Shown: positions 39,889-55,103, counted from the stretch's first letter. The stretch: 64,000 bases of DNA from Candidatus Solincola quzhuomuensis (GCA_015711855.1 JACVJF010000001.1:6164-70163), one strand, 5' to 3'. Notes: a model not told the origin generated them from the letters alone. Numbers and translations: made by a program.

Positions 39889-40211
39889 GCTTGAGGAGCA
39901 GGCCCGGGGGATTTGCCCCCGGGCCTCATACACGGCAACGGCCTCGCGGGAAGATAAATCATTATAACCGCAAGGGTTGGGAAGCATCTCCTTCAAGCCC
40001 GGGAAAACCAAGTACAAAGCTTCAGGCAACGGGGGAAATCCGTGAACGAACCTTATCTTCCTGGGTTTTCCCGCGCCCTATACCACCCTTTAAGGCGAAA
40101 GATCATCGACGTCGGATCCCGAAGAGGGAACGGGTCAAAGCTTTCCTCACCATTTGCGCTTCTCCCTGATGGGTGACCGGGTTGATGGCCGCTGTGGATG
40201 TTGGGTTTCCG

Positions 40212-40820
40212 CTAGACCGCCAAACCCAGGGATTCCATGACCTCTTCCAACCTCTCCCGTTTTCCCCTCCACCTGTCCTCCCGGTAGAGGGCCGGGCAAT
40301 CCCGGAGGCGATGTTTCTCCTGCAGCAGGAGCAGGGCGAAGGCCAGACAGCTCTGCTCCCCGCACTCCCGGCAGTTGGTCTGGGGGAGAAGTCCGTAGAT
40401 GTCCAGGGGTTTTATCTTTATCTTCCCCTCGTAGACCGGCTTTATCTCCTTTCGGTGTTCATGGACGTAGTTCAATCGCTCCGCCAGCCAGGCCAATACC
40501 TCTTCGGCGTCGGCCACGTCGTCGGCCTTGGCTATGGTCACTCTGCGGGGGTACACCGTGACCAGCCGCGGACCCTTGGTGAAGGTGAGAGCGGGACGGT
40601 CGGCGGCATAGGTTGCCATCCCTGGCTTCCCCTCCGTTTGCCCGTCCTCTTGTCCCACTGCGGCGCCACCCTGCCCCACATAGGTGGCGTTGGCCAGAAC
40701 GGCGTTCAGATAAGGCAAAAGATCGCTCACATCCACCGGGATACGGGCAATGAGCCTTATCTTGGTCTCGTCGGCGAAGCAGGGTTCCACCTGTTCTATC
40801 TCTATCCTCTCGATGAGCAT
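40212..40820 (-). CDS. uncharacterised Fe-S protein with C-terminal PF04060-like (CFeSP AcsC/CdhE N-terminal-type) 4-Cys domain
   Basis: 'LPQTNCRECGEQSCLAFALL...DCPAL'; N-domain 'LLPYLNAV'; paralogue of 50704..51228; SD 'GAAGGGAGGAG'. Confidence 0.6.
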   Translation of the reverse strand: MLIERIEIEQVEPCFADETKIRLIARIPVDVSDLLPYLNAVLANATYVGQGGAAVGQEDGQTEGKPGMATYAADRPALTFTKGPRLVTVYPRRVTIAKADDVADAEEVLAWLAERLNYVHEHRKEIKPVYEGKIKIKPLDIYGLLPQTNCRECGEQSCLAFALLLLQEKHRLRDCPALYREDRWRGKRERLEEVMESLGLAV

Positions 40821-41122
40821 TCTCCTCCCTTCAAAATCGCCCGAGCCGCTTTCGCCCCGGCCGATATGCCCCATCCCTGCGCTTTAGCCCCCTAAACTCG
40901 GCCATACTTGTCCGCGCGGGTTTGGCCATCGGCGCTTCCTCCGCAGGAGGACATCGGCCCACATGTCCGCAAGCCTGGTTTCTTTGCGCTAAAAGCCTCA
41001 CCGGGGACCGCATCGAGAAGCGCCCGTTTTAACTCCCAGCTCGCGGAGAGAAAGCCCAGGGCGCTCCACAATCCGGAATCGCCCGCGTCGTTAAAGCGGA
41101 CTCCTCATTCCCGCACAGATCC

Positions 41123-42223
41123 TCAGAGGACCCCTTTCGCTTTCCTGACCGACCACCCCCTCGCGGCGAGGACGTCCTCGGCTTGCGATAAAACTCCCCG
41201 GATCTCTCCCTCAGCGCCTTCCAGTATCAGGAAATTTCCCCCGCACATATCCCCCCGCCTCCAGAGGACCTCCGGAAGCGGAAGAAAGGCCTCTCCCAAT
41301 ACCAGGCGCAGGACGGCCAAGACCGCTCGGACCTTCCTTCTTTCTCTTTCTTCGGCGGGTATGTCCCCGGAAAAGAGGGGGAGGAGATTCCCGCTTCCCA
41401 CCGGCCCCGGCCGATTATCCCGCAAGAACATCGCCTCGTCCACCAGCTCCTCGGGGTCCATGCGGTAAAGGTCCTCCCGCCGCAGCAATATCTGGCGGAC
41501 GCCGTAATCCCTCACCAACTCACCGGGCCGTGGAGGCAGTCTTTCGGCGTGGATCACAGTCACGACGCTTTTCCCCAACGCCTCCCTGAACTCCTCGGGG
41601 CTCCAGGGTAGTTCACCGCGATCCCCAAGGGAAAGAATGAGGTAGACCAGGCCCAGAGAGACCATCTGCCCGGAAATCTCTCTTAAGCGCCTCAGATCCC
41701 CCCTCCCGCCTGGCCTTTTGGCCATCAACTCCGAATCATCTATCAGTCCTTCTCCGGATAGGTCCAGGACCAGGGCGGGAACCACCTCCCGACCCGCCAG
41801 CGCTTCGGTCAGGGTTTCCGCGGCGCGACAAAGAACCTCTTCCTGCTCCTCCATTCCCAAGAGATACACGATGTCCTCGCGTTCCAGCGGTTCATTTGTG
41901 GATAGTTTTTCCATAACTGCGGCGAGCCTGGGGTGATCCGCAAACTCTGAAGCAAGTTTTCCCGAAAGCCCCTCGTCGGCCCTTGCGCCCACCTGCTCCG
42001 GGTAAAGTACCGCCTTGACCAAAACCGCATGTCCTTCCAGCAGGTCCACCGCTTTCCCGCCCTCCGAGACGGGCAAAGCTATGGCCGTGGTGCACAGCTC
42101 CCCGGCCTGCGGAGGAGCGGGCACCAGCCTTGCACGGAAACCCCTCTCCTTGAGTAGAGCCTCGGCGCGCAGCATGTGGTGGGTGGATGGAAAGACGAGG
42201 ACGGCTTCGCTTCTAAGGGCCAC
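41123..42223 (-). CDS. hypothetical protein with N-terminal DUF3343-like domain
   Basis: 'AVLVFPSTHHMLRAEALLKERGFRARLVPAPPQ' resembles DUF3343 (putative S/Se carrier); remainder unrecognised, no radical-SAM Cys triad. Confidence 0.5.
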   Translation of the reverse strand: MALRSEAVLVFPSTHHMLRAEALLKERGFRARLVPAPPQAGELCTTAIALPVSEGGKAVDLLEGHAVLVKAVLYPEQVGARADEGLSGKLASEFADHPRLAAVMEKLSTNEPLEREDIVYLLGMEEQEEVLCRAAETLTEALAGREVVPALVLDLSGEGLIDDSELMAKRPGGRGDLRRLREISGQMVSLGLVYLILSLGDRGELPWSPEEFREALGKSVVTVIHAERLPPRPGELVRDYGVRQILLRREDLYRMDPEELVDEAMFLRDNRPGPVGSGNLLPLFSGDIPAEERERRKVRAVLAVLRLVLGEAFLPLPEVLWRRGDMCGGNFLILEGAEGEIRGVLSQAEDVLAARGWSVRKAKGVL

Positions 42224-42226
42224 AAC

Positions 42227-42616
42227 TTATTCTCCCCGCAACACTTCTCCCGTCTCCAGAGTATATTTCACGTCCTCCAGATCGGGTACCCTCCCATAGG
42301 CTACCAGCTTGCCGTCCACGGCAACTGCCGGGAGCACGTAACGCAGGGAGAAGGCCACCCGGGAGGCGAAGTCCTCCTCCCCTATATCGCGCAGGTAAGC
42401 GGCGAGTTTTTTTAGCCCCTCGGCATAGCCCCGGTCGTCGCTCATTGCGTACCGGACAATCTCTGCCGAGGGAAACCTCTCTTCCACCTCGGACATCAAT
42501 ACCTCCAGCCGGGACAGCTTCTCGGCGTCCCTCAAGGATACCGGCCCGGAACAGGTACACGCCGGTGCGGGTATGAAGAATTCCACCTGGTGATCCCTTT
42601 CAGCCATACTTGCCAA
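42227..42616 (-). CDS. ArsD-like thioredoxin-fold arsenic metallochaperone (tentative)
   Basis: N-terminal 'FFIPAPACTCSG' vs ArsD 'FDPAMCCSTGVCG'; '...LPAVAVDGKLVAYGRVP' resembles ArsD C-region; 4 nt from ACR3 operon partners. Confidence 0.4.
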   Translation of the reverse strand: MASMAERDHQVEFFIPAPACTCSGPVSLRDAEKLSRLEVLMSEVEERFPSAEIVRYAMSDDRGYAEGLKKLAAYLRDIGEEDFASRVAFSLRYVLPAVAVDGKLVAYGRVPDLEDVKYTLETGEVLRGE

Positions 42617-42757: not shown

Positions 42758-43927
42758 TCACACATCATTTGCCGAACCTCCGTTGGCGGCTACGGCGGCC
42801 GGTACTTCCTCGGGACGGAACCAGTGCTGGGTGCGTAAGCATATCTTAACCAAAAGAAGCATCACCGGCACCTCGATGAGCACCCCCACCACCGTGGCCA
42901 GGGCGGCTCCCGAGGCGATGCCGTAGAGCACGGTGGCCGTGGCGATGGCCACCTCAAAGTGGTTGGAGGCTCCGATCATGGCCGAAGGAGCTGCGTCTCG
43001 ATAATTGAGCCTTATCAGTTTGGCCAATCCGTACCCTATCCAGAATATGAGGTTGGTCTGGATGAACAAGGGTATGGCTATATAGAGGATGGACATGGGC
43101 TGGTCGATGATCAGCTGACCCTTCAGGCTGAAGAGGATGATCAAAGTCACCAGCAGGGCGATGATGGTGATGGGCGTGAGATAGTGGATGAACTTTTCCT
43201 GAAACCAATCCATGCCCTTGCGCTTCAGTATCCATTTCCTGGAAAAATATCCGGCTATCAGGGGGAGGGCCACGTATATGCCCACGGAGAGCACGATGGT
43301 CAGCCAAGGAACGGGCATGCTGTTGACGCCCAGGAGCCATCCGCCGAGGGGAGCGTAAAGGAAGAGCATGGTCAGGGAGTTGATGGCCACCATGACCAGG
43401 GTGTGGCCGTCGTTCCCCTTGGCCAGATAACCCCATACCAGAACCATAGCCGTGCAGGGGGCGATGCCCAAAAGGATGCACCCCGATATATAGGAACGGT
43501 AGAGCTCCGGCCTCAGTACCCCGTCCACCATGATACCCCCGGTGGTGGGTACATAGTGGGTACCGAGATCCGCGCCGGGAATCCATCTCTTGAAGACGAA
43601 GCCCAAAAAGAAGGTGGCGATGGCCACCATGGTGAAGGGCTTTATGCACCAGTTCACGAAGAGGGTGAGAAGCACCGGCTTGGGCGTTTTGCCCGCCTTA
43701 ATGACCTCGGCGAAGTCGATCTTGACCATGATGGGATACATCATGAAGAAGAGGCATATGGCGATAGGGATGGACACTTGGGCCACGGATATCTTGTCCA
43801 AGGCCTCTCCCATGCCCGGGAAAGCTTTGCCCAGCAGGATGCCTATACCGATGCACACCAAAACCCAGACAGTCAGATATTTCTCGAAAAAGCCCAATCT
43901 ACGCGCCACCTTAGGCTGCTCTACCAA
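42758..43927 (-). CDS. acr3: ACR3 family arsenite efflux transporter
   Basis: 10-TM protein with ACR3 hallmarks '[19 protein letters not shown]', '[12 protein letters not shown]'. Confidence 0.85.
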
Positions 43928-44399: not shown

Positions 44400-44514
44400 C
44401 CCGTCGTGCCTATTTGGGGCGGCTGATCATAATTAACTATCTATTGACCAAACTAAATTTATCGATATATTAATTATTAAAGAAAATCGATGTCGAGGTC
44501 CATAGTCCACTACC
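44400..44514. promoter_or_regulatory. AT-rich divergent promoter/operator region between acr3 operon and arsR
   Basis: 'atcgatatattaattattaaagaaaatcgat': two ATCGAT palindromes flanking AT-rich core immediately upstream of arsR ATG. Confidence 0.35.
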
Positions 44515-44889
44515 ATGGCTATGAAAGCAAGAGAGTGCAGCGCATCAGAAACACATACCTCATCGGCTTACGAAGAAGCTTGTCCCGCCAAAGGGCGACT
44601 ATTTCTTCCCGAGGTCGACGAGGAAGCATTGAGAAAAACGGCGAAGCTGCACAAGGTCCTCTCGGATGAAACGCGGCTGAAGATACTCCTTTTTCTGCGG
44701 GAGGGTGAACTCTGCGTCTGCGATATCGTCGACGCCCTGGGTAAGCCGCAATCCACCGTTTCGCACCATCTCTTCCTCTTGCAGAATTCAGGCCTCATAA
44801 AAGCCAGAAAAAAGGGGCGCTGGAACATGTATTCCCTAAGCGATACGGCGAGGGCTCTCGGCGACTACTTCCTGAAAATCGGCTTGTAA
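44515..44889 (+). CDS. arsR: ArsR/SmtB family metalloregulator
   Basis: wHTH with 'ELCVCDI' metal-binding motif; divergent from acr3 operon. Confidence 0.85.
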   Translation: MAMKARECSASETHTSSAYEEACPAKGRLFLPEVDEEALRKTAKLHKVLSDETRLKILLFLREGELCVCDIVDALGKPQSTVSHHLFLLQNSGLIKARKKGRWNMYSLSDTARALGDYFLKIGL

Positions 44890-44954: not shown

Positions 44955-45830
44955 TCAAGGCCTTGCTCTCAGCACTAGGACCGGGATCTCGCTGTGGTTG
45001 ACCACGCTCTCCGCCACTCCGCCCAGCAATTTTTCAGGCAAGCGGCGATGTCCAAGCGCTCCCAACACGATGAGCGAGGCACCGATCTCCTTCGCCACCC
45101 TCAGGATGGTCGAGACGGGACCGCCTTCCTCCAGGCGGGTTTGTACGTTGCCGCAATGTGCCCCCAGGCAAGAGGCGAGCTCGCGCAGTTTCTCCATCCC
45201 GTGCTCCGCCTTTTCCTACTCCATTAATGTCTTCATGGCGCCCACATACGCGTCCTCGTCACGCTGCACATGCAAAAGAGTTATATCCTCGCAACAGGAC
45301 GAGGCCATCTCCTCCAATAGAGGCCGGAGGCTCTCCGCGTAGGCGGAGAAGTCGGTAGCCACAAGCACCTTCTCGAAGAGGAGGTCGCATACGGCCTCGC
45401 ACTCATACCCCTCATCCTTTTCGTGGATCCTACACTTATGCACCAACACCGGGCGGTCGGCCAACCGGAGCACCTTACCGCTGACGCTCCCGGTGAGGAC
45501 CCGCTCAAAGAACCCCGCGCCGTGTCCGCCGAGGTAGATCAAGGAAACATCCTCTTCAGCCGCCACGCGGAGGATCTCCCTGGCAGGCGAGCCCGGCTCT
45601 ATCCTTCGGACAACCTCCAAGCCTTCGATGTCCGGCAGGCGGCCGATCCTTTCGAGTTCCCGGCGGGCATAGGCCTCCATCAAATCCTTGGCCATTTCGG
45701 CGTGCCTGGCATCGACGGCATAGAGCAGGATCAACTCCTTCATCCCCGCCCTAACCAGTTCGCCCACACAGCCCAGAAGCCTCTCGGTGTACGGCGAGAA
45801 ATCCACGCCTAAGAGCACCTTTTCGAACAT
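44955..45830 (-). pseudogene. tandem universal stress protein (UspA x2) interrupted by in-frame TAG
   Basis: USP domain 1 intact; domain 2 runs 'ITLLHVQRDEDAYVGAMKTLME-TAG-EKAEHGMEKLRELA...IPVLVLRARP' in one frame; TAG at ~45216-45218; SD 'AAAGGAGGGG' at start. Confidence 0.6.
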
Positions 45831-46075: not shown

Positions 46076-46807
46076 TCATCCCTCCTTCCGCTCCAGCAGT
46101 GCCTTATACACGTTCTTGCCCCTCACGCGGGGCATGGCCTTTTCCCGCAGGGATTTAAGAGAATCGAGGATATCGTCAAGGTATCTCGCCGGGAAACCGA
46201 GCACGCATTCCCCCTCCGTCAGATCGGTGGCCTCGCGACAACCGTAGCAGCCTATGGACATATTCAGGCGCTGCTGCACGAAGGGGGTGATGGTCACGTC
46301 CACGCATGTGGCCTGAAGAACTGCGGTGTCGAAATGCAACCTTCCCCCGGTCTTGAACACGTGGGCCAATGCGATCCACATCAGGTGCTCGGCCATGGAC
46401 TCGACCACCACCACGTCCGGCTCCTCCTCCGCCTCCCCCAAAGGGCATAAGGACACCATCTTGTACCTGCCCATCTCCAGGCGTTGCATGGTGGAGAAGG
46501 TGTGCTTCACCGCCTCCTGGTTGCCAAAAATCCCCATCGCCGTCGGCATCTCCCCACTTATGAGGCGAGGCGGTGGATCGGCGAATCCCAGGGCCCACGC
46601 GGCAGCCGGGCAGGATATGTTCTCGGGGGTCAGCAGCACGTGCCTGCCCCTCCTCGCCTCCATGAGCACCTGACAGTAGCGCCGCTTGTCCGGTAGGTCG
46701 CACCCCGACAGAGGGGCTAATTCCTCGTGGAACTTCACCGCCACCGGACTGGTGGTCATGCCCAATATCTCCTCTATCTGGGAGGCTTTAATCGAAAAGT
46801 CGGACAT
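46076..46807 (-). CDS. DUF169 family protein
   Basis: 'ISCPAAAWALGF' and 'GCYGCREATD' DUF169 hallmarks. Confidence 0.6.
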   Translation of the reverse strand: MSDFSIKASQIEEILGMTTSPVAVKFHEELAPLSGCDLPDKRRYCQVLMEARRGRHVLLTPENISCPAAAWALGFADPPPRLISGEMPTAMGIFGNQEAVKHTFSTMQRLEMGRYKMVSLCPLGEAEEEPDVVVVESMAEHLMWIALAHVFKTGGRLHFDTAVLQATCVDVTITPFVQQRLNMSIGCYGCREATDLTEGECVLGFPARYLDDILDSLKSLREKAMPRVRGKNVYKALLERKEG

Positions 46808-46950: not shown

Positions 46951-47534
46951 TCACGTCTGGGCCTCGCCAGGGGTTTCGTCCGGCGCCTCGTAACCTTCTT
47001 TGAAAAAGACCCTCTCGATGACCTCACTCAAGATGACCACCACCAGGGTAGCCAAGTAACGAGCGAGCATGAACTTCCAACCCAGAAACTGCAGCTCCAT
47101 CAACTCGGCGGGGATTTTTATGCACGCCCAAGCCGAAAGGAAGATGATCATATTCTCCACCTTGGCGCCCTTCCTCAGCAGCATCGACGTCAGCGGGAAG
47201 GCCACTTAGAGCGGGCCCATGGGTATACTCCCCAGGATGAAGGAAAGGATGACCCCCTTGACCCCGGATTCCTCACCCAGAAACCGGACGATGAACTCCC
47301 TTTCCACTCATACGCTTACCAGGCCCATGAGGATAAACACCGCGGGAAGGATCACGGCCATCTCCTGAAATATTCCCAAGCAACGTGTCGGGCTTGAGCG
47401 CCTTTCTCAGGAAGCGTGATGACCATGACCAGGAAAAGGGGTGCGATGAGGAAGAGGGTGGCATAATCCCATCGTATTCGCTTCCGAAGGCTCTCCTTTT
47501 TCCCCTCGGCCCCGATGTCGTCGTTTTTCCTCAT
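46951..47534 (-). pseudogene. DUF318/ArsP-like permease half-domain, disrupted by multiple frameshifts/stops
   Basis: four short frame-shifted pieces each resembling the N-half of the intact permease at 49227..50285. Confidence 0.45.
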
Positions 47535-47977
47535 CCTACGATCACCCCCACCACCACCGCGATGGCCACGGCGGCGACGAAGCTCAAAGCGTTTCTGGCG
47601 ATGGCGAACTTCTTTCCCAGCTCCTTGATCTCCAGGGGCAGGAACACGAAACCGACCATGGTCAGGGTGGTGATGAAGGCCGCGGTGGCCATGTAGCCGG
47701 CTCCCATGTCCAGCAAGGACCTGGCCAAGGGGAAGGCGATGATGACCGGAATGAAGAGCACCGCTCCTAAAAACGAGGCGATAGCCACCCCCTGCGCGCC
47801 GCTGTTCTTTCCGATCGCCTGCGCGATTACCTTGGGCGGGACGAAACCCACTATCAGGCCCACCACCAGGATGATGGCCAGGACACTGGGCAGAAACCTT
47901 ACAAAGCCTTTATAGGCCACGCGAAGCGCAGCTGCCGTCTTCCTCTGATCCTTGACCACACTCAGCAGCAGCAGCAC
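47531..47977 (-). CDS. DUF318/ArsP-like permease, C-terminal-half homologue (148 aa)
   Basis: aligns with C-half of 49227..50285 ('GNAIASVSGALMYFATL...' vs 'GAQGVAIASFLGAVLFIP...'). Confidence 0.5.
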   Translation of the reverse strand: MLLLLSVVKDQRKTAAALRVAYKGFVRFLPSVLAIILVVGLIVGFVPPKVIAQAIGKNSGAQGVAIASFLGAVLFIPVIIAFPLARSLLDMGAGYMATAAFITTLTMVGFVFLPLEIKELGKKFAIARNALSFVAAVAIAVVVGVIVG

Positions 47978-48058: not shown

Positions 48059-48412
48059 TCACAGCGCGTCCTCCAAGAAATTGACGCAGGCGTCCTCGGG
48101 AGCGAAGAGGTTGGCGGCCACTTCCACGGCTTTGAGGGTCGCCGCAGGCACGATGCAGGAGTTGCGGCAGCAGTGCTCCGAGGCCGCGCGGTATACCGCC
48201 GTGTCCCGCATGGGCAGGGTCATCTCGCTACCGGGGTTGACCTCCTTGAGCTCCTCCGCCAGCTCCGCGATATGCTCGCAGGAGGTCTCGAACTGCAAGG
48301 ACACGATTGTCTGGCTGCTCTTCCTGGCCGTGATCACCGTCTCCTTGCCGCACTGCCCTCCTTTGACAAACACTATGGCCATGCATTCCCTCCCCCGATC
48401 CCACCCGGACAC
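48059..48412 (-). CDS. DsrE/DsrF-like sulfur-relay family protein (tentative)
   Basis: size and pattern 'AIVFVKGG...CEHIAEL...ACVNFLED' reminiscent of DsrE/YchN fold. Confidence 0.35.
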   Translation of the reverse strand: MSGWDRGRECMAIVFVKGGQCGKETVITARKSSQTIVSLQFETSCEHIAELAEELKEVNPGSEMTLPMRDTAVYRAASEHCCRNSCIVPAATLKAVEVAANLFAPEDACVNFLEDAL

Positions 48413-48593: not shown

Positions 48594-48977
48594 TTAACCC
48601 TTCGTCGCCAAGGCCTCCTCGATGCGTCGCTTGACTTCCGCCTTGATCCTCTCCTTCTCCTCTTCGTCATAGGCGAGCACAGGGGCCTTCTTCACCCCGA
48701 AATCCTCGACCATCTCCACCCGTAGGTCGGGCTTGCGGCCGGAGTGCTCCTCCACGATCTTGGAGCAGCACATAACCGGGCAGCCCTCGATGATCACGAA
48801 TAATTCCGCACCGGCTATTTTGTTGAGGCCCGTGTCCTTGTCGATGGCCACCGCGGGCAGGCATACCAGGTGGTAATCCTCGTTCTCCTTCACCAGCTCC
48901 GTGGCCACCGCCCCTGCCAGCTGTCCGGTGTTGGCGGCTCCGTAACATGTAGCGATAACAACCTTGAGCTCGGCCAT
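48594..48977 (-). CDS. DGC-domain protein (putative Zn/Fe-binding)
   Basis: 'VVIATCYGAANTGQLAG...YHLVCLPAVAID...FVIIEGCPVMCCSKI' matches DGC domain layout; SD 'AGAAGGAGGAAA'. Confidence 0.55.
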   Translation of the reverse strand: MAELKVVIATCYGAANTGQLAGAVATELVKENEDYHLVCLPAVAIDKDTGLNKIAGAELFVIIEGCPVMCCSKIVEEHSGRKPDLRVEMVEDFGVKKAPVLAYDEEEKERIKAEVKRRIEEALATKG

Positions 48978-49226
48978 TTTCCTCCTTCTGTTCCTTCGAT
49001 GCACGCATACAGCTGCTTTGCCTGCCTTCAAGCCGGTTCCAGAGCCATCCTTCGCCGTTTGCGTTTCGGCTCATAGGTATTACGGCACATCATCCGAACC
49101 GGATCGTACCCGCTGGGACCGCAAACGCTTGCGTACGATGACTCCGAGAAATACTGGCGCTGCCTTCCGCGATTTGTGGATACTTATGTCTTACGCCACA
49201 AACACTTTCTCCTCCGCTCAGCGTCA

Positions 49227-50285
49227 TCAAGCGAACATCCCGAACACGAACCCGGTGCCCATGGCGAAGAGACACACCAGGGCGATGTAGGTCAAGGCTT
49301 TCTTAGGGCCTAAAATCCTGATAAGCACTATCATGCTGGGCAGGGATAGCGCCGGACCGGCCAGCATGAGGGCCAGTGCCGGCCCCTTGCCCATTCCCAA
49401 GTCCAACAAACCGCGCACTATGGGCACCTCGGTGAGGGTGGCGAAATACATGAGGGCGCCGGAGACGGAGGCGATGGCGTTTCCCCCTATGGTGTTGCCT
49501 CCCACGTACCTGGAGATCACCTCGGGCGGGATTAGCTCCTTTATCACGCCGACCAAGAAGACCCCTAAAAGCAGCACAGGGAGGATCATCTTCACCATGC
49601 GCCAGGTCTCAAGGAACCAGGTCTTTATCTCCTCCCTGGTGAACCACCTCTTCACCAGGTAGATGAGTAAAGCCACGAGCAGCACTTCCCCTCCGTACTT
49701 GTAGATGTTGGCCATCTTGGCCGTGCCGTAGACCAGGATGGCGATGAGCACCCCGAAGTAGGCCAGGTTCTGGCGGCCTGGTCGTACCCGACTCCCGTCG
49801 TCGTAGGCGAAAACTCCGGCGGCCTCCGCCTCGAGCATCCGTTGCTCCTCTTCCTTGTGAAAGATGCCGGCCATGATCAGGCCGATGACGAAGGCGAATC
49901 CCACCGCTCCGATGATGCGGGCCACCCCCAGGTCGTACCCCAAGAGGTGGATGGAATAGGTCATGGCCAGGATGTTTATGGCCGGCGAGGAATAGAGGAA
50001 GGCCACCGCCGGCCCCAGCCCGGCCCCCTTCTCCCTTATCCCCGTGAAGAGGGGAAGCACGGTGCAGGAGCACACGGCCAGAATCGCCCCGGAAACCGAG
50101 GCCACGGAATATGCCAGGACCTTGTTGGTACGCGGACCGAAATACTTCATCACCGCCGCCGTGTTCAGGAAGGCGGCTATGGCCCCGGCGATGAAAAAGG
50201 CGGGGACCAAACAGAAGAGAGTATGCTGGGCCACGTATTCGTAGAGGGTCTTGAGGCCCTCCAACATCAACCCGCCGAAAGTCAT
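49227..50285 (-). CDS. arsP: DUF318 permease, ArsP-like (organoarsenical efflux permease family)
   Basis: two homologous 4-TM halves, 'AVCSCTVLP' resembling ArsP 'TPFCSCS' motif. Confidence 0.65.
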   Translation of the reverse strand: MTFGGLMLEGLKTLYEYVAQHTLFCLVPAFFIAGAIAAFLNTAAVMKYFGPRTNKVLAYSVASVSGAILAVCSCTVLPLFTGIREKGAGLGPAVAFLYSSPAINILAMTYSIHLLGYDLGVARIIGAVGFAFVIGLIMAGIFHKEEEQRMLEAEAAGVFAYDDGSRVRPGRQNLAYFGVLIAILVYGTAKMANIYKYGGEVLLVALLIYLVKRWFTREEIKTWFLETWRMVKMILPVLLLGVFLVGVIKELIPPEVISRYVGGNTIGGNAIASVSGALMYFATLTEVPIVRGLLDLGMGKGPALALMLAGPALSLPSMIVLIRILGPKKALTYIALVCLFAMGTGFVFGMFA

Positions 50286-50322: not shown

Positions 50323-50565
50323 TCAAGACTCGAACCAGCTCCTTATCTCTTTCTTCGAAGGAACCTTCCCCTTGGAGACCACCTTTCCGTCGATCACCAC
50401 CCCCGGGGTGACGAGGACGTTGTACTTCATAATCTCCGACATGTCGGTCACTTCCTCCACCTCGGCCTCCAGGCCAAGCTCGGAAACCACCTCCTTGATG
50501 GCCTCCTTGGTGGCGATGCACTTCTTGCATCCGGGTCCCAGTACCTTGATCTCCATCTGACTCAC
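50323..50565 (-). CDS. thioredoxin-fold redox-active disulfide protein
   Basis: 'KVLGPGCKKCIAT' CxxC, 80 aa; typical partner of DUF318 permeases. Confidence 0.75.
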   Translation of the reverse strand: MSQMEIKVLGPGCKKCIATKEAIKEVVSELGLEAEVEEVTDMSEIMKYNVLVTPGVVIDGKVVSKGKVPSKKEIRSWFES

Positions 50566-50703: not shown

Positions 50704-51228
50704 TCAGAGCCCCAGCTCCCTCAACTTTTCCAAATTCTCCTCCATGCCCGCCTCCAGAAGGGGAGGGCAATCCTCCACGCATCTCTCCCCTTCTACCAGC
50801 TGTGCAGCGAAGGCCATGCAGGAAGGCACTCCGCACTTCCCGCAGTTGGTGCGGGGAAGATAACGCAAAATGTCCAGGAGCTTGGGGGGAACCCGCGTGG
50901 TGTGGTCGGGCTCTATCTCCGCCCGTCGCTCCCAGATATCGTTTAACCGCTGCACGACCTTCCTGGCCGTTCTCTCGGCGTGGCCGCGGTCCTTGAGGTT
51001 GTTGATGCTGATCACGTTCTCGCGCAACGCGTACTTGTGAGCGCCTTCCCTCCAGACGATGGTCGGGACCTTGGAATCGTAGAAGGCGTTTTTCACTACG
51101 GCGTTGACGTAGGGCATGAGAGGTCCCAGATCGGCGTCCGTCTTCAACCGAGCCACCCAGATGGGCGACCCCGGGTCGCAGGGCGGCGAGAACATCTCCA
51201 ACTCGTAATGGTTTATGAACATGGACAT
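50704..51228 (-). CDS. uncharacterised Fe-S protein with C-terminal PF04060-like 4-Cys domain (paralogue 2)
   Basis: 'LPRTNCGKCGVPSCMAFAAQLVEGERCVEDCPPL'; N-domain 'LMPYVNAV'; paralogue of 40212..40820. Confidence 0.6.
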   Translation of the reverse strand: MSMFINHYELEMFSPPCDPGSPIWVARLKTDADLGPLMPYVNAVVKNAFYDSKVPTIVWREGAHKYALRENVISINNLKDRGHAERTARKVVQRLNDIWERRAEIEPDHTTRVPPKLLDILRYLPRTNCGKCGVPSCMAFAAQLVEGERCVEDCPPLLEAGMEENLEKLRELGL

Positions 51229-51266: not shown

Positions 51267-51485
51267 TCACCCCTCGCTCTTGCTCTTCCCGGTCACTATC
51301 TCTCCCTGGTTTGGTCGGTACGACTCCTCGAAGACCGGCACGCAGTGCGGAAGATCGGCCTCTTTGACCTTTTTCTCCAACACCTCCCGGATGAACTTCA
51401 AGGCTTCCTCGCGGTCGTCGTCGGCCAGGATGCGCTTTATCCAGATGAGCTCCTCCTCGCCGAGGGACACGGCTATCTTCTTCAT
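51267..51485 (-). CDS. small conserved hypothetical protein (72 aa), 'EELIWLKRI' family copy 1
   Basis: ATG overlaps stop of upstream arsR by 4 nt; paralogue of 53198..53398. Confidence 0.5.
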   Translation of the reverse strand: MKKIAVSLGEEELIWIKRILADDDREEALKFIREVLEKKVKEADLPHCVPVFEESYRPNQGEIVTGKSKSEG

Positions 51486-51895
51486 CCTCTTTTCCCTCCT
51501 CGCCCGTTCGCTTCGCTCCCCCGCTTCGCTCGTGCCGTTGGCGCCGGCGTGCAACACGCCGCATCCGGCCCTTCGCCAGGTTGGCCCCGATTGCCGAGGT
51601 AACGCAGAAATAATTCGGTGAGATTCCCGAGTCTCGCTTCCGCTACCGAATAATACGAGGACGTCCTCTCCTTCCTCGCTCTAAGAAAACCGGACTCTTT
51701 GAGCACGCTGAGGTGGTGTGAGGCCAATTGCTGCGAGATGCCGAGCTCCCTTTCCACCTCGCACACACAATGCTCTCCCCTGAGCAGCAGGCAGATTATG
51801 CGCAGACGGTTGGGGTCGGACAGGACCTTCAGTCCCTCCGCGAGTTCCACTATTCCTGGGTCCACAACGCACTTCAGAGTTTGCCCTTCGGCCAT
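51482..51895 (-). CDS. arsR: ArsR/SmtB family metalloregulator (second copy)
   Basis: 'RLRIICLLLRGEHCVCEVERELGISQQLASHHLSVLKESGF'; C-terminal tail with Cys pair. Confidence 0.8.
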   Translation of the reverse strand: MAEGQTLKCVVDPGIVELAEGLKVLSDPNRLRIICLLLRGEHCVCEVERELGISQQLASHHLSVLKESGFLRARKERTSSYYSVAEARLGNLTELFLRYLGNRGQPGEGPDAACCTPAPTARAKRGSEANGRGGKRG

Positions 51896-52329
51896 CTCTC
51901 CGACCTTTCACCAATTATTATTTGTACTAATTGCAATTTGTATTTTAACTAACCACGGCTCCTTGTCAATGACCAATACCATCATTGGAGGAGCGCCCCA
52001 TTTTTTCCTATCCGGATTGCCACCTCTTTGTCGGCCGGTTTGTCACGTTGCGTTACTGCCTGCCTTAGTCAAGACTCAAGACGCCGACCCCGTGATCCAG
52101 AGAAAGAGACAGCATCGAGACGCTTTCTGTGCCGGCTTCGTCCTCCATGCCTTGAGGTGGCGAGAAGCCCAGCGACACCGTTTACACGTTTAAGAAAGGC
52201 TCGGGCCTGGCTAGACCTCGCGGCGACACAACAACGGGAGTTGGGACAACCCAAAAAACCCGGCAACCGTACACTCCTGTTTGAATCCTGCGAAGGATAT
52301 GGTCGAGGGTTGCACGACATCACCCCAAA

Positions 52330-52430: not shown

Positions 52431-52488
52431 TAGGTTTCTTTGTCGATGGTAAAGCGAGAGGGAGGACGAAATGTAGGTTAGCGAGGAA

Positions 52489-52860
52489 ATGCAAAAGGTG
52501 ATCGATTCCCTTTCGGCGCTGCCGGGGTATATCTGCCATGGGCTGGTAAACTACCGCAAGGGGGTTTCCGCTTTGAACGAGGATTCCGATCCTCAAGACG
52601 AGGTGAACTACTTCCCTCAGCAGTGTTCGGCCATCATTCAGACCCTGGAAAAATCGCTGCAGAATCTGGAAGGAGGAAATCCCGACAAGCTGATGGTCGA
52701 ATCCTCCAAGATGACCATGATGATCTTTATAGTGAACGACACTTACTTCTGCGGTGTGGGGCTCAGCCCGGAACCCCCGCGGACGAAGCGGCTCGCCTCC
52801 TCGAGGAACTGCGGGAATCTTTCCGAAAGCAGCTTCCCGGATAAGGGGCAACGACCTTGA
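52489..52860 (+). CDS. roadblock/LC7 (MglB-like) domain protein (tentative)
   Basis: size and pattern 'LPGYICHGLVNYRKG...LMVESSKMTMMIFIVNDTYFCGV'. Confidence 0.4.
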   Translation: MQKVIDSLSALPGYICHGLVNYRKGVSALNEDSDPQDEVNYFPQQCSAIIQTLEKSLQNLEGGNPDKLMVESSKMTMMIFIVNDTYFCGVGLSPEPPRTKRLASSRNCGNLSESSFPDKGQRP

Positions 52861-53197
52861 AGCCGGTAGAAGGTTGAGTGCGCGAAGAGCCGCTTCAGAG
52901 GGAGATGGCCATTCGTATTTTTTTCTCCAGACCCTGGTGACTTTGTGACGACACATAATCCGGATAGCGCGCTGTGGCTTTTCCGGACTCGGTGTGCTAT
53001 GCTCCGTGCGCACATCGCCCCCCATTTTCGGCCAACAAGGGATGGGTGGAACAGGATCTATAAGGGCGGCGAAAATGCCCCTTCGTTTCGTCCGGCGGTT
53101 TATGGTTTTGAAATAAATCGAGGATGCTTTGCGCAACTTTTAGGATGCGCATGTTATCTTAGTAAAAGACCGCTCGAGCGGAGACCGGAGGTCCGGC

Positions 53198-53398
53198 GTG
53201 AGAAGGCTGTTGTTGAGCCTGGATGAGGACGAGCTGATCTGGCTGAAGCGGATCATCACCGACCAGGACAGAGACGAGGCCCTGGCGTTCGTCAACAAGA
53301 TACTCAAACCTCGCATGAAGGACGCGGAACGCCCCACGGGCCTGCAGAGGACCTTCGACTCGGGAGGTCCGCCAGGGCAGATAGGCGTGCCCCGCTGA
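53198..53398 (+). CDS. small conserved hypothetical protein (66 aa), 'EELIWLKRI' family copy 2
   Basis: 'SLDEDELIWLKRIITDQDRDEALAFVNKIL' vs copy 1 'SLGEEELIWIKRILADDDREEALKFIREVL'; 38 nt upstream of arsC. Confidence 0.5.
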   Translation: MRRLLLSLDEDELIWLKRIITDQDRDEALAFVNKILKPRMKDAERPTGLQRTFDSGGPPGQIGVPR

Positions 53399-53435
53399 TT
53401 TAAGGCATGGAGGGCGAGGGAGCGAGGGAGGACGC

Positions 53436-53837
53436 ATGGGCGGGAAGAAAGTTCTTTTCGTATGCGGCGAGAACGCCGCGCGTAGCCAGATGGCCGAGGC
53501 CTTCTTCAACAGCTTGGCCCGGAAATGGCGGGCGGAAAGCGCGGGAACCTTCCCGGCGGAAAAGGTGAACCCTTTGGCCGTGCAGGCCATGCAGGAGACC
53601 GGCCTGGACATTTCCTCCGCCACCCCCAAAGTCCTCGACCTGGGGCGTCTGGGCGATTTCGACCGCATCATCTCCTTCGGCTGCATCGCCAAAGCCGCCT
53701 TCCCCGCGCGGGACCGCCTGGAGGAATGGGCCCTTCCGGACCCCGGCAAGGGTGACATGGAGCTCATGCGAAGCGTAAGGGATGAGATAAGGAGGCTTGT
53801 CGGTTCCTTGGTCAAGGAGCTTGAGGGCGGCGACTGA
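53436..53837 (+). CDS. arsC: arsenate reductase, LMW-PTP family (thioredoxin-coupled)
   Basis: 'KVLFVCGENAARSQMAEAFF' CX5R P-loop plus downstream Cys. Confidence 0.85.
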   Translation: MGGKKVLFVCGENAARSQMAEAFFNSLARKWRAESAGTFPAEKVNPLAVQAMQETGLDISSATPKVLDLGRLGDFDRIISFGCIAKAAFPARDRLEEWALPDPGKGDMELMRSVRDEIRRLVGSLVKELEGGD

Positions 53838-54083
53838 CCGTTTGGACGCCCATCCTGTTGAAAACATGCCCCGTTCGCCCTTTCCTAGGCTTCAGGTACA
53901 AGCAGCTTCTTACCATCCTCCATATATACGGCCATCCAGCAGCCAATGGAGGTTCCCTTCGAGGTACACACCCAACAAGCCCGCCGCAAAGGAACCTGGT
54001 CACGAGCAAAAAGGGCAGGAAACGGAGTCGAGCGAACCCAGGCCTCCCCTGGGTCACACGCGGGTTTCCGGTTATTCGGCCGC

Positions 54084-54623
54084 TTACCCTTGGCGTTGTA
54101 GTCGCAAGACGTAGAATCCGATGATGAAGTTCATCGTCGACCTGGCCAGAAGAAATATACCGACCACCACCATGAACGCGTAGACCGTCTCCGCGGTCAA
54201 GGCCAGCATGGCGACGCCGAAAGCAAGGCTGATCGAGCCGAACGCGGCCAGGAAGCCCCTCCCGCTGAGCGGGGGTAGGTCGAGGGCCAAGGCGATCTCA
54301 ACGATACCCACGAAGATCGCCCATATCCCCACCAGAGCCGCCGCAAAGGCCAGGGTGAACTCCGTGTGGCGGACGAGCACCGTGCCGAGCAGCAGTCCCG
54401 CCACCCCCCAAACCAGCGTCCAGCCCCAGGGGATCCGGTTCGCGGCCAGGACCAAGGAGCGGATCAGGTTCACAACGCCATCCACGAGGAGGAAAATGCC
54501 GGCGATGACGATGAAGGTCTTGAGTGTGGCTCCCGGATAGGCGAGGAAGAGGACCCCCATGGCGAGGGCCAGGATACCCCTTAACACATATGTCCACCCG
54601 CTGCGGAGCACGATTCCTGCTTC
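54084..54623 (-). CDS. HdeD/DUF308 family membrane protein
   Basis: repeated TM pairs with 'GILALAMGVLFLAYPG' pattern; start at internal ATG (MEAGIV). Confidence 0.55.
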   Translation of the reverse strand, partial: EAGIVLRSGWTYVLRGILALAMGVLFLAYPGATLKTFIVIAGIFLLVDGVVNLIRSLVLAANRIPWGWTLVWGVAGLLLGTVLVRHTEFTLAFAAALVGIWAIFVGIVEIALALDLPPLSGRGFLAAFGSISLAFGVAMLALTAETVYAFMVVVGIFLLARSTMNFIIGFYVLRLQRQG

Positions 54624-55103
54624 CATAAGCCCTCCCCTTCTCCGTTGCTCATCGCCTTTCCTTGTCTCGGGCCGCCTCCCGCCTTCCAAAGGGGACCTCC
54701 TCTTTTTCGCCTCTGCCCCGGAGTTCTTTTTGCGGTTGCAAGCCTTAACCATTATATTCATCATACTCCTTATGCCTTTTCCTTTTCTTTCCCGTGGCCG
54801 GTTGGTTTTCCTCCGAAGCCGGCCCTTCTCCCGGGCAACACCACCCCTAGCCCCTCTCGTCTTCTCCTTGCCGCTTGTCAATGCAAGTATGTGCTTTGGC
54901 GATCAGGACGAAGTTCTCAAGCCCATCCCACGTCGACCTGTTCCCCGAATCCCTGGACCGTTAACGGATAGGCCAAAGACCGGAGCCGTCGAAGGGAAGC
55001 CTTTCGGATATAAATAGCCGGCGCACGAGCGGACCGCTTACGGCCAATCCGCCCGTGCGCCGCCTTTAATCTCCGCCGCCCTCGACGATTCAGCCCGTGG
55101 GCT

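What the first reader, a model, noticed from the sequence alone, without database searches (positions are those of the whole stretch)
40200..54650. Two parallel ArsR-headed arsenic/organoarsenical resistance loci with uncharacterised conserved partners
Two ArsR copies each head a locus on the minus strand. Locus 1 runs acr3, an ArsD-like protein, a DUF3343 protein and a PF04060-like Fe-S protein, with arsR divergent. Locus 2 runs arsR, a small 'EELIWLKRI' protein, a paralogous Fe-S protein, a thioredoxin-like protein, an ArsP-like DUF318 permease, a DGC protein, a DsrE-like protein, permease remnants and DUF169. The first locus is followed downstream by the tandem-USP gene, and a second small-protein copy plus arsC, a roadblock/LC7 protein and HdeD follow the second locus. 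Each unit has its own regulator, transporter and Fe-S protein, which suggests a duplicated module rather than random accretion. Several members (Fe-S protein, small protein, DUF3343 protein, DGC, DUF169) have no established role in arsenic biology. The ArsP-like permease and thioredoxin-like partner point to trivalent organoarsenical handling.
Basis: partly seen in the sequence, partly recalled or inferred. Interest (0 to 1): 0.75.

Follow-up and report, generated by a model that had tools for sequence, protein, structure and literature searches.

The report
Arsenic-resistance supercluster with uncharacterised iron-sulfur partners
A 14-kb arsenic-resistance gene cluster in an anaerobic actinobacterium carries conserved cysteine-rich and iron-sulfur helper genes of unknown function, which recur next to arsenic pumps in several phyla and may supply reducing power for detoxification without oxygen.

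Summary
Corrections:
- The 'DsrE-like' gene is DUF6951.
- The 'permease remnants' are a conserved two-gene split DUF318 permease with one frameshift.
- The roadblock/LC7 call has no support.

The arrangement is not chance. The Fe-S protein family has at least 1,971 protein clusters and at least 584 hits in species-representative genomes. In 80 loci from six phyla it sits co-directionally with Trx_3, ArsR, DUF318/ArsP, Acr3, DGC, ArsC and ArsM.

The 'duplicated module' reading is only partly right. The paralogues are ancient (31% identity). They mark two different conserved modules, which in close relatives form one contiguous array.

New findings:
- The Fe-S protein is a single TBP-fold domain with one invariant Cys, plus a PF04060 [4Fe-4S] domain.
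- The 'DUF3343 protein' is a DUF3343 domain fused to a HydE/BioB-like radical-SAM barrel that has lost its CX3CX2C motif.
- The small protein is a new DxD family, translationally coupled to arsR.

Best mechanism (inferred): a ferredoxin-linked thiol relay supporting arsenic reduction and efflux. No accessory function has been shown, and organoarsenical specificity is untested. I rate it a new variant of a known kind, of moderate interest.

The parts
40212..40820 (-). FeS1. A TBP-fold N-domain plus a C-terminal PF04060 [4Fe-4S] domain. It is the last gene of module B. The likely start is MLIERIE at 40820; the ORF extends to 40874.
   Evidence: Pfam PF04060, 42.5 bits. It is 31% identical to FeS2. 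It is 69% identical to the Fe-S gene that follows DUF3343x in L081. The alignment shows an invariant Cys plus CX2CX4CX16C.
41123..42223 (-). DUF3343x. An N-terminal DUF3343 (Se/S-carrier-like) domain with invariant Cys44, fused to a degenerate radical-SAM barrel of the HydE/BioB/PylB/ThiH type that lacks the CX3CX2C motif.
42227..42616 (-). Small CxC protein ('ACTCSG') with a weak Trx_3/ArsD-superfamily C-terminus. It always sits directly upstream of DUF3343x.
   Evidence: Only sub-threshold hits: VcpD 20.7 bits, Trx_3 18 bits. It is 72% identical to the no-Pfam 132-aa gene in L081. The same position is occupied in L083, L084 and L085.
42758..43927 (-). Acr3 arsenite efflux permease.
   Evidence: TIGR00832, 402 bits against a cut-off of 282.8. 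It is 92.5% identical to the L081 Acr3.
44444..44502 (.). Divergent promoter-like region with the palindrome AATTTATCGATATATT (44456-44471), a candidate ArsR1 operator.
   Evidence: Promoter scan, 10 of 12 matches. Inverted repeat. Sequence read directly.
44515..44889 (+). ArsR1, an ArsR/SmtB repressor with the ELCVCD motif. It is divergent from acr3.
   Evidence: PF01022 67.8 bits and NF033788 92.8 bits. The CVC motif is conserved. It is not orthologous to the co-directional module-B arsR of relatives.
44955..45830 (-). Tandem universal stress protein, interrupted by an in-frame TAG at 45216-45218. It is probably not part of the conserved system.
   Evidence: Pfam Usp on both pieces. Translation and sequence read directly. 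It is absent from this position in L001 and L081.
46076..46807 (-). DUF169 protein, a recurrent but minor partner of the Fe-S family.
   Evidence: PF02596, 186 bits. DUF169 lies within a few kb upstream of an Fe-S gene in L012, L017, L025 and L030 (directly upstream in L017), and directly upstream of the DUF3343-FeS fusion in L086.
46951..47510 (-). Second half of a split DUF318 permease (ArsPb), with one frameshift near 47364-47370.
   Evidence: tblastn with the L081 188-aa gene. Residues 2-50 align in frame -3 and residues 49-187 in frame -2, at 65-83% identity.
47531..47977 (-). First half of the split DUF318 permease (ArsPa), intact.
   Evidence: It is 85% identical to the L081 161-aa gene. 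PF03773 partial hit.
48059..48412 (-). DUF6951, a Cys-rich protein that includes a vicinal CC pair. It is not DsrE.
   Evidence: PF22263, 87 bits. It is 91% identical to the L081 gene in the same position.
48594..49031 (-). DGC-domain protein (four-Cys, putative Zn site).
   Evidence: PF08859, 69.9 bits. A DGC family lies on the same strand as the Fe-S gene in 11 loci. It is also part of the As-induced ArsR5-ArsP-ArsE-DGC operon of P. mercurii.
49227..50285 (-). Full-length DUF318/ArsP_1 permease with a CSC motif.
   Evidence: PF03773, 267 bits. The SO_0444 model scores 120 against 300 and the SaoE model 97 against 325, both below cut-off.
50323..50565 (-). Trx_3 / 'MTH895-ArsE family' thioredoxin-like protein with a CKKC motif.
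   Evidence: PF13192 107.8 bits and TIGR00412 105.9 bits against a cut-off of 62. It is the most frequent same-strand neighbour of the Fe-S gene, found in 27 of 80 loci.
50704..51228 (-). FeS2. A TBP-fold N-domain with invariant Cys17, plus a PF04060 [4Fe-4S] domain.
51267..51485 (-). small1, a 72-aa member of a new DxD small-protein family. Its start overlaps the arsR2 stop in an ATGA.
   Evidence: Sequence read directly. The same 4-nt overlap occurs in L001 and L002. The family has 23 hits in 17 loci. No Pfam or PDB match.
51482..51895 (-). ArsR2, an ArsR/SmtB repressor with a CVC motif plus a conserved N-terminal Cys and a C-terminal vicinal CC. It heads module A.
   Evidence: PF01022 57.8 bits and NF033788 82.5 bits. 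Alignment.
51925..51969 (-). Promoter-like TTGACA-16-TAAAAT, followed by the palindrome TACAAATTGCAATTAGTA, a candidate ArsR2 operator.
   Evidence: Best promoter match in the region, 11 of 12. Inverted repeat. Sequence read directly.
53198..53398 (+). small2, the second member of the small DxD family. It lies 38 nt upstream of arsC.
   Evidence: It is 40% identical to small1. Sequence read directly.
53436..53837 (+). LMW-PTP-type ArsC-like arsenate reductase. It has the CX5R Cys plus only one further Cys.
   Evidence: PF01451, 67 bits. All three ArsC NCBIfam models fall below cut-off, at 67-80 bits against 158-215.

Best explanation
What it is (high confidence). The region is an ArsR-controlled arsenic-detoxification supercluster in an anaerobic Actinomycetota genome of the Geothermincolales type. 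It is built from two different, anciently conserved modules.
- Module A is arsR2, small DxD protein, FeS2, Trx_3 ('ArsE-family'), DUF318 permease, DGC, DUF6951 and a split DUF318 permease.
- Module B is arsR, Acr3, CxC protein, DUF3343 fused to a pseudo-radical-SAM barrel, and FeS1.
- A small2-arsC pair lies nearby.

How it most likely works (inferred, not shown).
- As(III) releases the CVC-type ArsR repressors.
- ArsC reduces As(V), and Acr3 exports As(III).
- The Cys-rich accessory set (Trx_3, CxC protein, DGC, DUF6951, the DUF3343 Cys, and the CSC permeases) binds and passes on thiophilic arsenic species.
- The two TBP-fold/[4Fe-4S] proteins are the low-potential electron entry point. They would carry electrons from ferredoxin, through the PF04060 cluster and the invariant Cys, to the Trx-like and dithiol proteins. 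This would keep the relay reduced under anoxia and power ArsC without an NADPH thioredoxin reductase.
- The pseudo-radical-SAM barrel would act as a ligand-binding or scaffold partner of FeS1, not as a radical enzyme.
For: Identity of the parts.

Promoters and operators:
- The two best promoter-like sites in 15.5 kb lie in front of arsR2 and arsR1. Each has a palindrome.

Conservation:
- L001 carries both modules as one co-directional array.
- L081, L083, L084 and L085 keep arsR-(acr3)-(Trx-DsbD)-CxC-DUF3343x-FeS.

Fe-S family neighbourhood in 80 loci from Actinomycetota, Chloroflexota, Desulfobacterota, Spirochaetota, Bacillota and Planctomycetota. Counts are loci with the family within 5 kb on the same strand:
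- Trx_3 27, ArsR 23, ArsP 19, Acr3 18, CcdA/DsbD 13, a ferredoxin-domain protein 12, DGC 11, ArsC 7.
- ArsM in 7 loci, on either strand.
- Acr3 density is 5.1 per 100 kb within 1.5 kb of the Fe-S gene. A genome with 1-2 copies gives roughly 0.03-0.05 per 100 kb (my estimate).
- Of the 40 loci with at least 4 kb on both sides, 19 have a thiol-redox partner and 16 an As-specific gene.
- Trx_3 or DGC is often the immediate upstream neighbour.

Other support:
- The PF04060 motif CX2CX4CX16C and one extra Cys are invariant.
- PF04060 occurs in RnfB and in the ACDS gamma subunit, both electron-transfer contexts.
- DUF3343-FeS fusion proteins exist.
- An ArsR-ArsP-ArsE(PF13192)-DGC operon is induced by As(III) and As(V) in P. 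mercurii ND132 (bioRxiv 10.1101/2022.10.17.512643).
Against: - No function of any accessory protein has been shown anywhere, and I found no paper on the Fe-S family.
- Only one extra invariant Cys is present. Ferredoxin:thioredoxin reductase uses a disulfide next to its cluster.
- About 28% of well-flanked Fe-S loci show none of the labelled partners, and 60% have no As-specific gene. The family is therefore not arsenic-specific.
- In this lineage arsR2, small1 and FeS2 are tightly packed (ATGA overlap, then a 38-nt gap). That fits a regulatory unit equally well.
- ArsC scores below all curated ArsC cut-offs.
- ArsPb is frameshifted and the USP carries a stop codon. Part of the middle block may be decaying, or the assembly may be imperfect.
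Confidence: 0.4

Rival explanations
1. Regulatory co-sensor. The TBP-fold/[4Fe-4S] protein, together with the small DxD protein, is a redox- or arsenic-sensing partner of ArsR. It would act as a co-repressor or anti-repressor, or bind DNA itself through a TBP-like saddle formed by an FeS1/FeS2 dimer.
For: - arsR2, small1 and FeS2 are tightly linked, with an ATGA overlap conserved in L001 and L002.
- ArsR is immediately followed by the Fe-S gene in L003.
- IMG names the family 'ArsR family metal-binding transcriptional regulator'.
- FeS1-like and FeS2-like genes co-occur in 14 loci, which would allow a two-repeat TBP-like heterodimer.
Against: - The N-domain is acidic across the family (median pI 5.5, net charge -3; only 2% have net charge of +3 or more; n=139). 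This is unlike DNA-binding TBP cores.
- No HTH domain or ArsR fusion appeared among 87 + 120 listed homologues.
- Only 35% of well-flanked loci have an arsR nearby.
- In Desulfobacterota the gene sits after Trx_3, DGC or CcdA and before arsC-acr3, far from arsR.
- It is fused to a DUF3343 Cys-carrier domain rather than to DNA-binding domains.
Confidence: 0.2
2. Not arsenic-specific. The set of FeS, Trx_3, DGC, DUF169, DUF6951 and DUF318 is a general system for thiophilic metals or reactive sulfur or selenium species, controlled by ArsR/SmtB-type regulators. It merely sits beside Acr3 and ArsC in resistance neighbourhoods.
For: - 24 of the 40 well-flanked Fe-S loci lack Acr3, ArsC and ArsM.
- Other partners are CcdA, VKOR-Trx, TauE, FmdE-like proteins and ABC transporters.
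- The DUF3343-FeS fusion locus L086 has DUF169, a half-permease and DGC, but no arsR or acr3.
- The nearest curated relatives of the permease are a Cu/Zn exporter (SO_0444) and SaoE.
- DUF3343 has been proposed as a Se/S carrier (PMC5322559).
Against: - The enrichment for Acr3, ArsC and ArsM near the Fe-S gene is strong, extends across phyla and is co-directional.
- Both regulators here carry the CVC As(III)-type motif.
- The equivalent ArsR-ArsP-ArsE-DGC operon responds to arsenic in P. mercurii.
- small2 is paired with arsC.
Confidence: 0.2
3. Metallochaperone. The Fe-S protein, the CxC protein and the DUF3343 domain bind As(III) or MAs(III) directly and hand it to Acr3 or the DUF318 permeases, as ArsD does for ArsA. 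The cluster would be structural.
For: - Each protein has an invariant single Cys or a CxC or vicinal Cys motif (and the translations).
- The genes lie next to the transporters.
- The CxC protein weakly resembles the ArsD/VcpD and Trx_3 families.
Against: - No ArsA is present.
- The ArsD Pfam model does not match.
- A four-Cys [4Fe-4S] electron-transfer domain is not needed for a chaperone.
- A single Cys cannot chelate As(III) alone.
Confidence: 0.1
4. One reading: a recent local duplication produced two parallel, independent regulator-transporter-FeS units.
For: Two ArsR, two Fe-S, two small proteins and two or three permeases lie within 14 kb.
Against: - Paralogue identities are 31% (FeS), 45% over the HTH region (ArsR) and 40% (small).
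- Each paralogue has closer orthologues in other genomes, with distinct partners.
- The transporters belong to unrelated families.
- In L001 the units are one array.
Confidence: 0.05

Closest known systems
Canonical ars operons (arsR-acr3-arsC)
   Same: - ArsR/SmtB repressors with the CVC motif.
- An Acr3 above the curated cut-off.
- An LMW-PTP-type ArsC-like gene.
- Promoter plus palindrome in front of each arsR.
   Different: It contains about ten additional conserved genes with no established role: FeS1 and FeS2, small DxD proteins, the CxC protein, DUF3343x, DGC, DUF6951, DUF169, and the split and full DUF318 permeases. ArsC scores below the curated ArsC cut-offs.
ArsR5-ArsP-ArsE(PF13192)-DGC operon of Pseudodesulfovibrio mercurii ND132 (bioRxiv 10.1101/2022.10.17.512643). 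Also ArsEFG/ArsP of the Rosen laboratory, cited from my own knowledge.
   Same: - The same four families (ArsR, DUF318 permease, PF13192 thioredoxin-like, DGC) lie in one operon.
- That operon is up-regulated by As(III) and As(V).
   Different: - As that paper describes it, the ND132 operon contains no TBP-fold/[4Fe-4S] protein and no small protein.
- Gene order differs.
- An organoarsenical role is assumed there too, not tested.
SAO system (Haft, bioRxiv 10.1101/2022.07.06.499078): SaoE permease, SaoT thioredoxin-like, SaoD, MerB-like SaoL, ABC transporter
   Same: - A DUF318-type permease plus a small thioredoxin-like protein plus several proteins with CC or CxxC motifs.
- A proposed organometal(loid) chemistry in anaerobes.
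   Different: - No MerB-like lyase and no selenoproteins were seen.
- The SaoE model scores 97 bits against a cut-off of 325.
- No Sao-family NCBIfam hit for the other genes.
PF04060 [4Fe-4S] domain of RnfB and of the corrinoid Fe-S protein / ACDS gamma subunit
   Same: The CX2CX4CX16C motif is shared. The best NCBIfam matches are to the N-terminus of ACDS gamma (59-60 bits) and to RnfB.
   Different: Here the domain is C-terminal to a single TBP-fold domain in a 170-200 aa stand-alone protein. There is no corrinoid or Rnf context.
TATA-binding protein fold (TBP-domain superfamily)
   Different: - A single repeat.
- About 10% identity.
- An acidic surface in most family members.
- No evidence of DNA binding.
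HydE/BioB/PylB/ThiH-type radical SAM enzymes and DUF3343-radical SAM-BATS fusions (e.g. P0189)
   Same: - There is profile-level homology, including the N-terminal DUF3343 domain.
   Different: - The CX3CX2C cluster motif is absent and about 35 residues are deleted.
- The Pfam Radical_SAM model no longer matches.
- The genomic context is ars-type rather than a maturase-like pair of radical SAM genes.

Membership tests
ars operon (ArsR-regulated arsenic resistance) | ArsR/SmtB repressor with an As(III)-binding Cys motif | tested here: met
   Both ArsRs exceed NF033788. The CVC motif in helix 3 is conserved. ArsR2-type proteins also keep a C-terminal CC. As(III) binding itself was not tested.
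ars operon (ArsR-regulated arsenic resistance) | Dedicated As(III) efflux transporter | tested here: met
   The Acr3 equivalog TIGR00832 scores 402 bits against 282.8.
ars operon (ArsR-regulated arsenic resistance) | Arsenate reductase ArsC | tested here: inconclusive
   The LMWPc domain is above the Pfam cut-off. All three ArsC NCBIfam models are below theirs (67-80 bits against 158-215). Only two Cys are present.
ars operon (ArsR-regulated arsenic resistance) | Induction by arsenic and a resistance phenotype | not testable with these tools
   Needs an experiment. The analogous operon in P. mercurii is induced.
ArsP methylarsenite efflux permease (TCDB ArsP family) | PF03773/DUF318 fold | tested here: met
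   267 bits against 32.3.
ArsP methylarsenite efflux permease (TCDB ArsP family) | Orthology to characterised C. jejuni ArsP, and MAs(III) transport | not tested
   No reference sequence was at hand. The only curated subfamily models that matched (SO_0444, SaoE) score below cut-off.
ArsD metallochaperone | ArsD family match with Cys12/13/18, and an ArsA partner | tested here: not met
   No ArsD Pfam hit at E<=0.01. The VcpD model scores 20.7 bits against 90. The motif is CTC, not CC..C. No ArsA-sized gene lies in the cluster.
MTH895/ArsE family thioredoxin-like (TIGR00412 / PF13192) | Family model above cut-off, and a CxxC motif | tested here: met
   105.9 bits against 62. The motif is CKKC.
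SAO organometallic system (Haft) | SaoE, SaoT, SaoD and SaoL equivalogs together | tested here: not met
   SaoE scores 97.5 bits against 325. No other Sao model matched. No MerB-like gene is present.
PF04060 Fe-S domain | CX2CX4CX16C four-Cys motif | tested here: met
   It is invariant in 17 diverse members. Both window copies exceed the Pfam cut-off. Cluster binding itself was not tested.
TBP-domain DNA-binding proteins | TBP fold | tested here: met
   [not shown]
TBP-domain DNA-binding proteins | Two repeats forming a basic DNA-binding saddle | tested here: not met
   There is a single repeat. The family N-domain has a median pI of 5.5. Dimerisation was not tested.
Radical SAM enzymes (HydE/BioB-like) | Partial TIM-barrel fold with a BATS-type C-terminus | tested here: met
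   [not shown]
Radical SAM enzymes (HydE/BioB-like) | CX3CX2C motif binding the SAM-cleaving [4Fe-4S] | tested here: not met
   It is absent in all 20 family members and present in the distant relatives P0189, P0193, P0200 and P0203. PF04055 does not match the window protein.
   The only hit is DUF6951, 87 bits.
   No Pfam or NCBIfam hit at E<=0.01, and no PDB sequence hit below E 0.3. The fold was not modelled.

The most novel reading that the evidence does not exclude
The two TBP-fold/[4Fe-4S] proteins, possibly as an FeS1/FeS2 pair, together with the cluster-less radical-SAM-like DUF3343 protein, form a previously unknown, oxygen-independent, ferredoxin-driven enzyme system. It would chemically transform arsenic species in strict anaerobes. 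Possible reactions are reductive C-As bond cleavage of methyl- or aromatic arsenicals, or processing of thioarsenicals. FeS1 would supply in trans the cluster that the barrel has lost.
Probability: 0.08. Interest if true: 0.85.

Novelty: new variant of a known kind. Interest (0 to 1): 0.55.

Why it matters
Arsenic resistance is well understood in aerobes and model bacteria. How strict anaerobes keep their thiol-based arsenic machinery reduced is not known. Nor is it known how they deal with trivalent organoarsenicals without the O2-dependent enzymes ArsI and ArsH.

This locus, and its relatives in at least six phyla, point to a large unstudied protein family of at least 1,971 clusters. The family combines a TBP-like fold with an electron-transfer [4Fe-4S] domain and travels with Acr3, ArsC, ArsM, DUF318 permeases and thioredoxin-like proteins. 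If it is the electron entry point of an anaerobic arsenic-detoxification relay, that would add a new component class to ars systems. It would also give function to several DUFs (DUF3343, DGC, DUF6951, DUF169).

The pseudo-radical-SAM fusion is an example of an enzyme fold recruited after losing its catalytic cluster. A cultured carrier, Desulfosarcina alkanivorans PL12, makes the question directly testable.

Tried and rejected
- Literature searches for PF04060 with arsenic, for COG4871, for the COG-style name and for the TBP-domain superfamily found nothing usable.
- The P. bifermentans ArsP paper has no information on Fe-S or thioredoxin partners.
- An Rfam scan of 38-56 kb found no riboswitch or RNA in the long non-coding stretches.
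- The small protein family was compared with Pfam (E<=1) and with a PDB profile. Only scattered noise came back, so my impression of a ribbon-helix-helix pattern remains unsupported.
- The ArsD-like and roadblock-like ORFs were compared with PDB sequences, with no meaningful hit.
- The terminator scan was no better than shuffles.
- A look-up of the window's own DUF3343x protein (P0088) in the contig index found no record.
- The AFDB fold library was unavailable.
- Contexts of the distant DUF3343-barrel relatives are unrelated to arsenic, so they give no functional transfer. The intact radical SAM P0189 sits next to a HydG/ThiH-like gene. The Bacillota cluster-less group P0190 sits in a yycJ-htrA-rlmH-like neighbourhood.
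- Rejected: recent duplication (identities too low).
- Rejected: a mobile island. No mobility genes were seen, and synteny with the AFOR/ferredoxin genes is conserved in L081.
- Rejected: DNA-binding TBP function as the leading model, because of the acidic surface.

Full report
**1. What is in the window**

ORF listing and Pfam/NCBIfam scans give the following map for 40.2-54.9 kb.

On the minus strand:
- FeS1, 40212-40820.
- A 366-aa DUF3343 protein, 41123-42223.
- A 129-aa CxC protein, 42227-42616.
- Acr3, 42758-43927 (TIGR00832, 402 bits).
- A tandem USP, 44955-45830.
- DUF169, 46076-46807.
- Two half-size DUF318 genes, 46951-47510 and 47531-47977.
- DUF6951, 48059-48412.
- DGC, 48594-49031.
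- A full-length DUF318/ArsP_1 permease, 49227-50285.
- A Trx_3 / 'MTH895-ArsE family' protein, 50323-50565.
- FeS2, 50704-51228.
- A 72-aa small protein, 51267-51485.
- ArsR2, 51482-51895.

On the plus strand:
- ArsR1, 44515-44889.
- A second small protein, 53198-53398.
- An LMW-PTP ArsC-like gene, 53436-53837.

A DUF308/HdeD gene follows at 54084.

- The 'DsrE-like' gene is DUF6951.
- 'ArsD-like' rests only on sub-threshold hits.
- Roadblock/LC7 has no support.
- The USP lies downstream of DUF169 rather than downstream of locus 1.

The flanks hold aldehyde:ferredoxin oxidoreductases, ferredoxins and a glycosyltransferase. No mobility genes were seen.

**2. The organism and the closest relatives**

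- The closest homologues come from Actinomycetota and Ca. Geothermincolales MAGs.
- In L001 (FeS2 89% identical) the order is arsC(-), arsR, small, FeS, Trx3, ArsP, DGC, arsR, acr3, CxC protein, DUF3343x, FeS. All but arsC are co-directional and contiguous.
- In L081 the order is DGC, DUF6951, a 161-aa and a 188-aa DUF318 half-permease, arsR, acr3, Trx, DsbD, CxC protein, DUF3343x, FeS, followed by ferredoxin and AFOR. This matches the window's synteny.

Relative to these genomes the window has four differences:
- DUF169 and USP are inserted.
- A different, inverted arsR1 is present.
- There is no Trx-DsbD pair.
- There is one frameshift in the second half-permease.

The 'remnants' are therefore a conserved split permease. 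The USP carries an in-frame TAG.

**3. Are the partners really associated with ars genes?**

The Fe-S protein family:
- It is large. The single sequence finds 87 clusters and the profile at least 1,971 at E<=1e-5. At least 584 stretches match in one-genome-per-species contigs.
- In the 80 best loci, from six phyla, ORFs were searched with the window's proteins and clustered all-against-all.
- Loci with the family within 5 kb, on the same strand as the Fe-S gene: Trx_3 27, ArsR 23, DUF318/ArsP 19, Acr3 18, CcdA/DsbD-type membrane proteins 13, a ferredoxin-domain protein 12, DGC 11, ArsC 7.
- ArsM is also found in 7 loci, on either strand.
- A recurrent Desulfobacterota arrangement is ArsR-ArsP-Trx3(-Trx3)(-DGC)(-CcdA)-FeS-ArsC-Acr3. 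One example is the cultured Desulfosarcina alkanivorans PL12 (L073).
- Acr3 density falls from 5.1 per 100 kb within 1.5 kb of the Fe-S gene to 0.9-1.5 beyond 3 kb. Both figures are far above what 1-2 copies per genome would give (my estimate).
- Among the 40 loci with at least 4 kb on both sides, 14 have ArsR, 19 a thiol-redox partner and 16 an As-specific gene. 11 have none of the labelled families.
- The association is therefore real but partial. The family is not exclusively arsenic-linked.

The DUF3343x family:
- It is rare. Only 28 clusters are found at 90% identity, and only 11 representatives at E<=1e-30 among 1.84 billion.
- In every context retrieved it sits between the CxC protein and an FeS1-type gene, behind an arsR.

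The small protein:
- It defines a family of about 48-aa cores with an invariant DxD. There are 23 hits in 17 loci and no Pfam or PDB match.
- In Anaerolineae it typically lies between an FeS2-like and an FeS1-like gene.
- Here, and in L001 and L002, its start overlaps the arsR2 stop in an ATGA.

**4. What the unknowns look like**

FeS2 (AF2 pLDDT 88.7):
- Invariant residues are one Cys in the first loop (C17), a PYLNA motif and the CX2CX4CX16C motif.
- The N-domain is acidic in most members (median pI 5.5). This argues against a TBP-like DNA saddle.
- Some homologues (P0081, P0085) carry an N-terminal DUF3343-like extension. This fusion links the DUF3343 and Fe-S genes of module B. Their locus has DUF169, half-permeases and DGC, but no arsR or acr3.

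DUF3343x (AF2 pLDDT 82):
- A profile search found distant relatives that are DUF3343+Radical_SAM+BATS proteins with an intact CX3CX2C. The window's family lacks the motif and about 35 residues. It is a pseudo-radical-SAM protein.
- The intact relative and a second cluster-less group lie in non-ars contexts.

**5. Regulation**

- All ArsRs keep the CVC motif.
- The module-A type (ArsR2) also keeps an N-terminal Cys and a C-terminal vicinal CC pair.
- The two best sigma-70-like matches in 15.5 kb precede arsR2 (11 of 12) and arsR1 (10 of 12). Each has an adjacent palindrome.
- No Rfam element was found.

**6. Interpretation**

The identity of the region is well supported: it is an ArsR-controlled arsenic-detoxification supercluster made of two conserved modules.

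The paralogues are 31-45% identical and each has its own orthologues and partners. FeS1-like and FeS2-like genes co-occur in 14 loci, which suggests that they work together.

For the accessory genes I favour a ferredoxin-linked thiol relay, for these reasons:
- The most frequent and most adjacent neighbours are thioredoxin-like and disulfide-transfer proteins, and ferredoxin-domain proteins.
- PF04060 is an electron-transfer module in RnfB and in the ACDS gamma subunit.
- The extra invariant Cys and the DUF3343 fusion point to thiol chemistry.
- The host is a ferredoxin-based anaerobe.

This mechanism is inference only. The rivals are a regulatory co-sensor, a general thiophile system and a metallochaperone. 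None of them is excluded.

Published context:
- An ArsR-ArsP-ArsE(PF13192)-DGC operon is arsenic-induced in P. mercurii ND132.
- DUF3343 was proposed as a Se/S carrier.
- The SAO system is a loose analogue.
- I found no paper on the Fe-S family.

**7. Verdict**

The finding is real and non-random, and it belongs to a known kind (ars clusters). It also carries a conserved, unstudied accessory set, for which new structural assignments were obtained here. Organoarsenical specificity is untested. I score interest as moderate (0.55) and novelty as a new variant of a known kind.

Noticed in passing
window 45216-45218 (minus strand): The tandem USP gene is interrupted by an in-frame TAG (…KTLME*EKAEHGMEKLRE…). 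This could be a nonsense mutation, an assembly error or read-through.
   Followed up: partly
window 47364-47370: There is a single frameshift in the second half of the split DUF318 permease. The orthologue in L081 is an intact 188-aa gene.
   Followed up: partly
window 43928-44514: About 590 bp lie between acr3 and the arsR1 promoter region, with no convincing ORF and no Rfam match. In relatives arsR is co-directional, about 200 bp upstream of acr3. This stretch may therefore be a scar of an arsR replacement or inversion.
   Followed up: partly
window 51900-53190: A 1.3-kb stretch of lower GC (0.556) has no confidently assigned gene apart from the unassigned ORF 52489-52860. It contains an AT-rich block (52360-52450) with promoter-like sites on both strands and a 15-nt inverted repeat, TATGATTTTTTATAA/TTATAAAAATTCTTA.
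   Followed up: no
L083 8410-10443: A relative carries a DGC domain fused to a GCV_H (lipoyl-carrier-like) domain. It is followed by two more DGC genes and a Trx_3. This hints at a link between DGC proteins and dithiol cofactors.
   Followed up: no
L021, L022, L023, L024, L035, L039 (Anaerolineae): A recurrent triad of an FeS2-like gene, the 48-aa DxD small protein and an FeS1-like gene. It is often accompanied by LmbE-like, ABC-transporter, VKOR-Trx, TauE and FmdE-like genes rather than ars genes.
   Followed up: partly
L088 3036-5735: An intact DUF3343-radical SAM-BATS protein (P0189) lies directly after a second radical SAM-BATS gene. The pair resembles HydG/HydE and may be the ancestral context of the DUF3343x barrel.
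   Followed up: no
window 42758-43927 compared with 41123-42223: Divergence from L081 is very uneven. Acr3 is 92.5% identical and DGC and DUF6951 are 91-93%. DUF3343x is only 53% and FeS1 69%. This suggests different evolutionary rates or a recent exchange of part of the cluster.
   Followed up: no
window 32161-34353, 36499-38412 and 38469-38735: Two aldehyde:ferredoxin oxidoreductase genes and a 2x[4Fe-4S] ferredoxin lie just downstream of module B. The ferredoxin-AFOR pair is syntenic with L081.
   Followed up: partly
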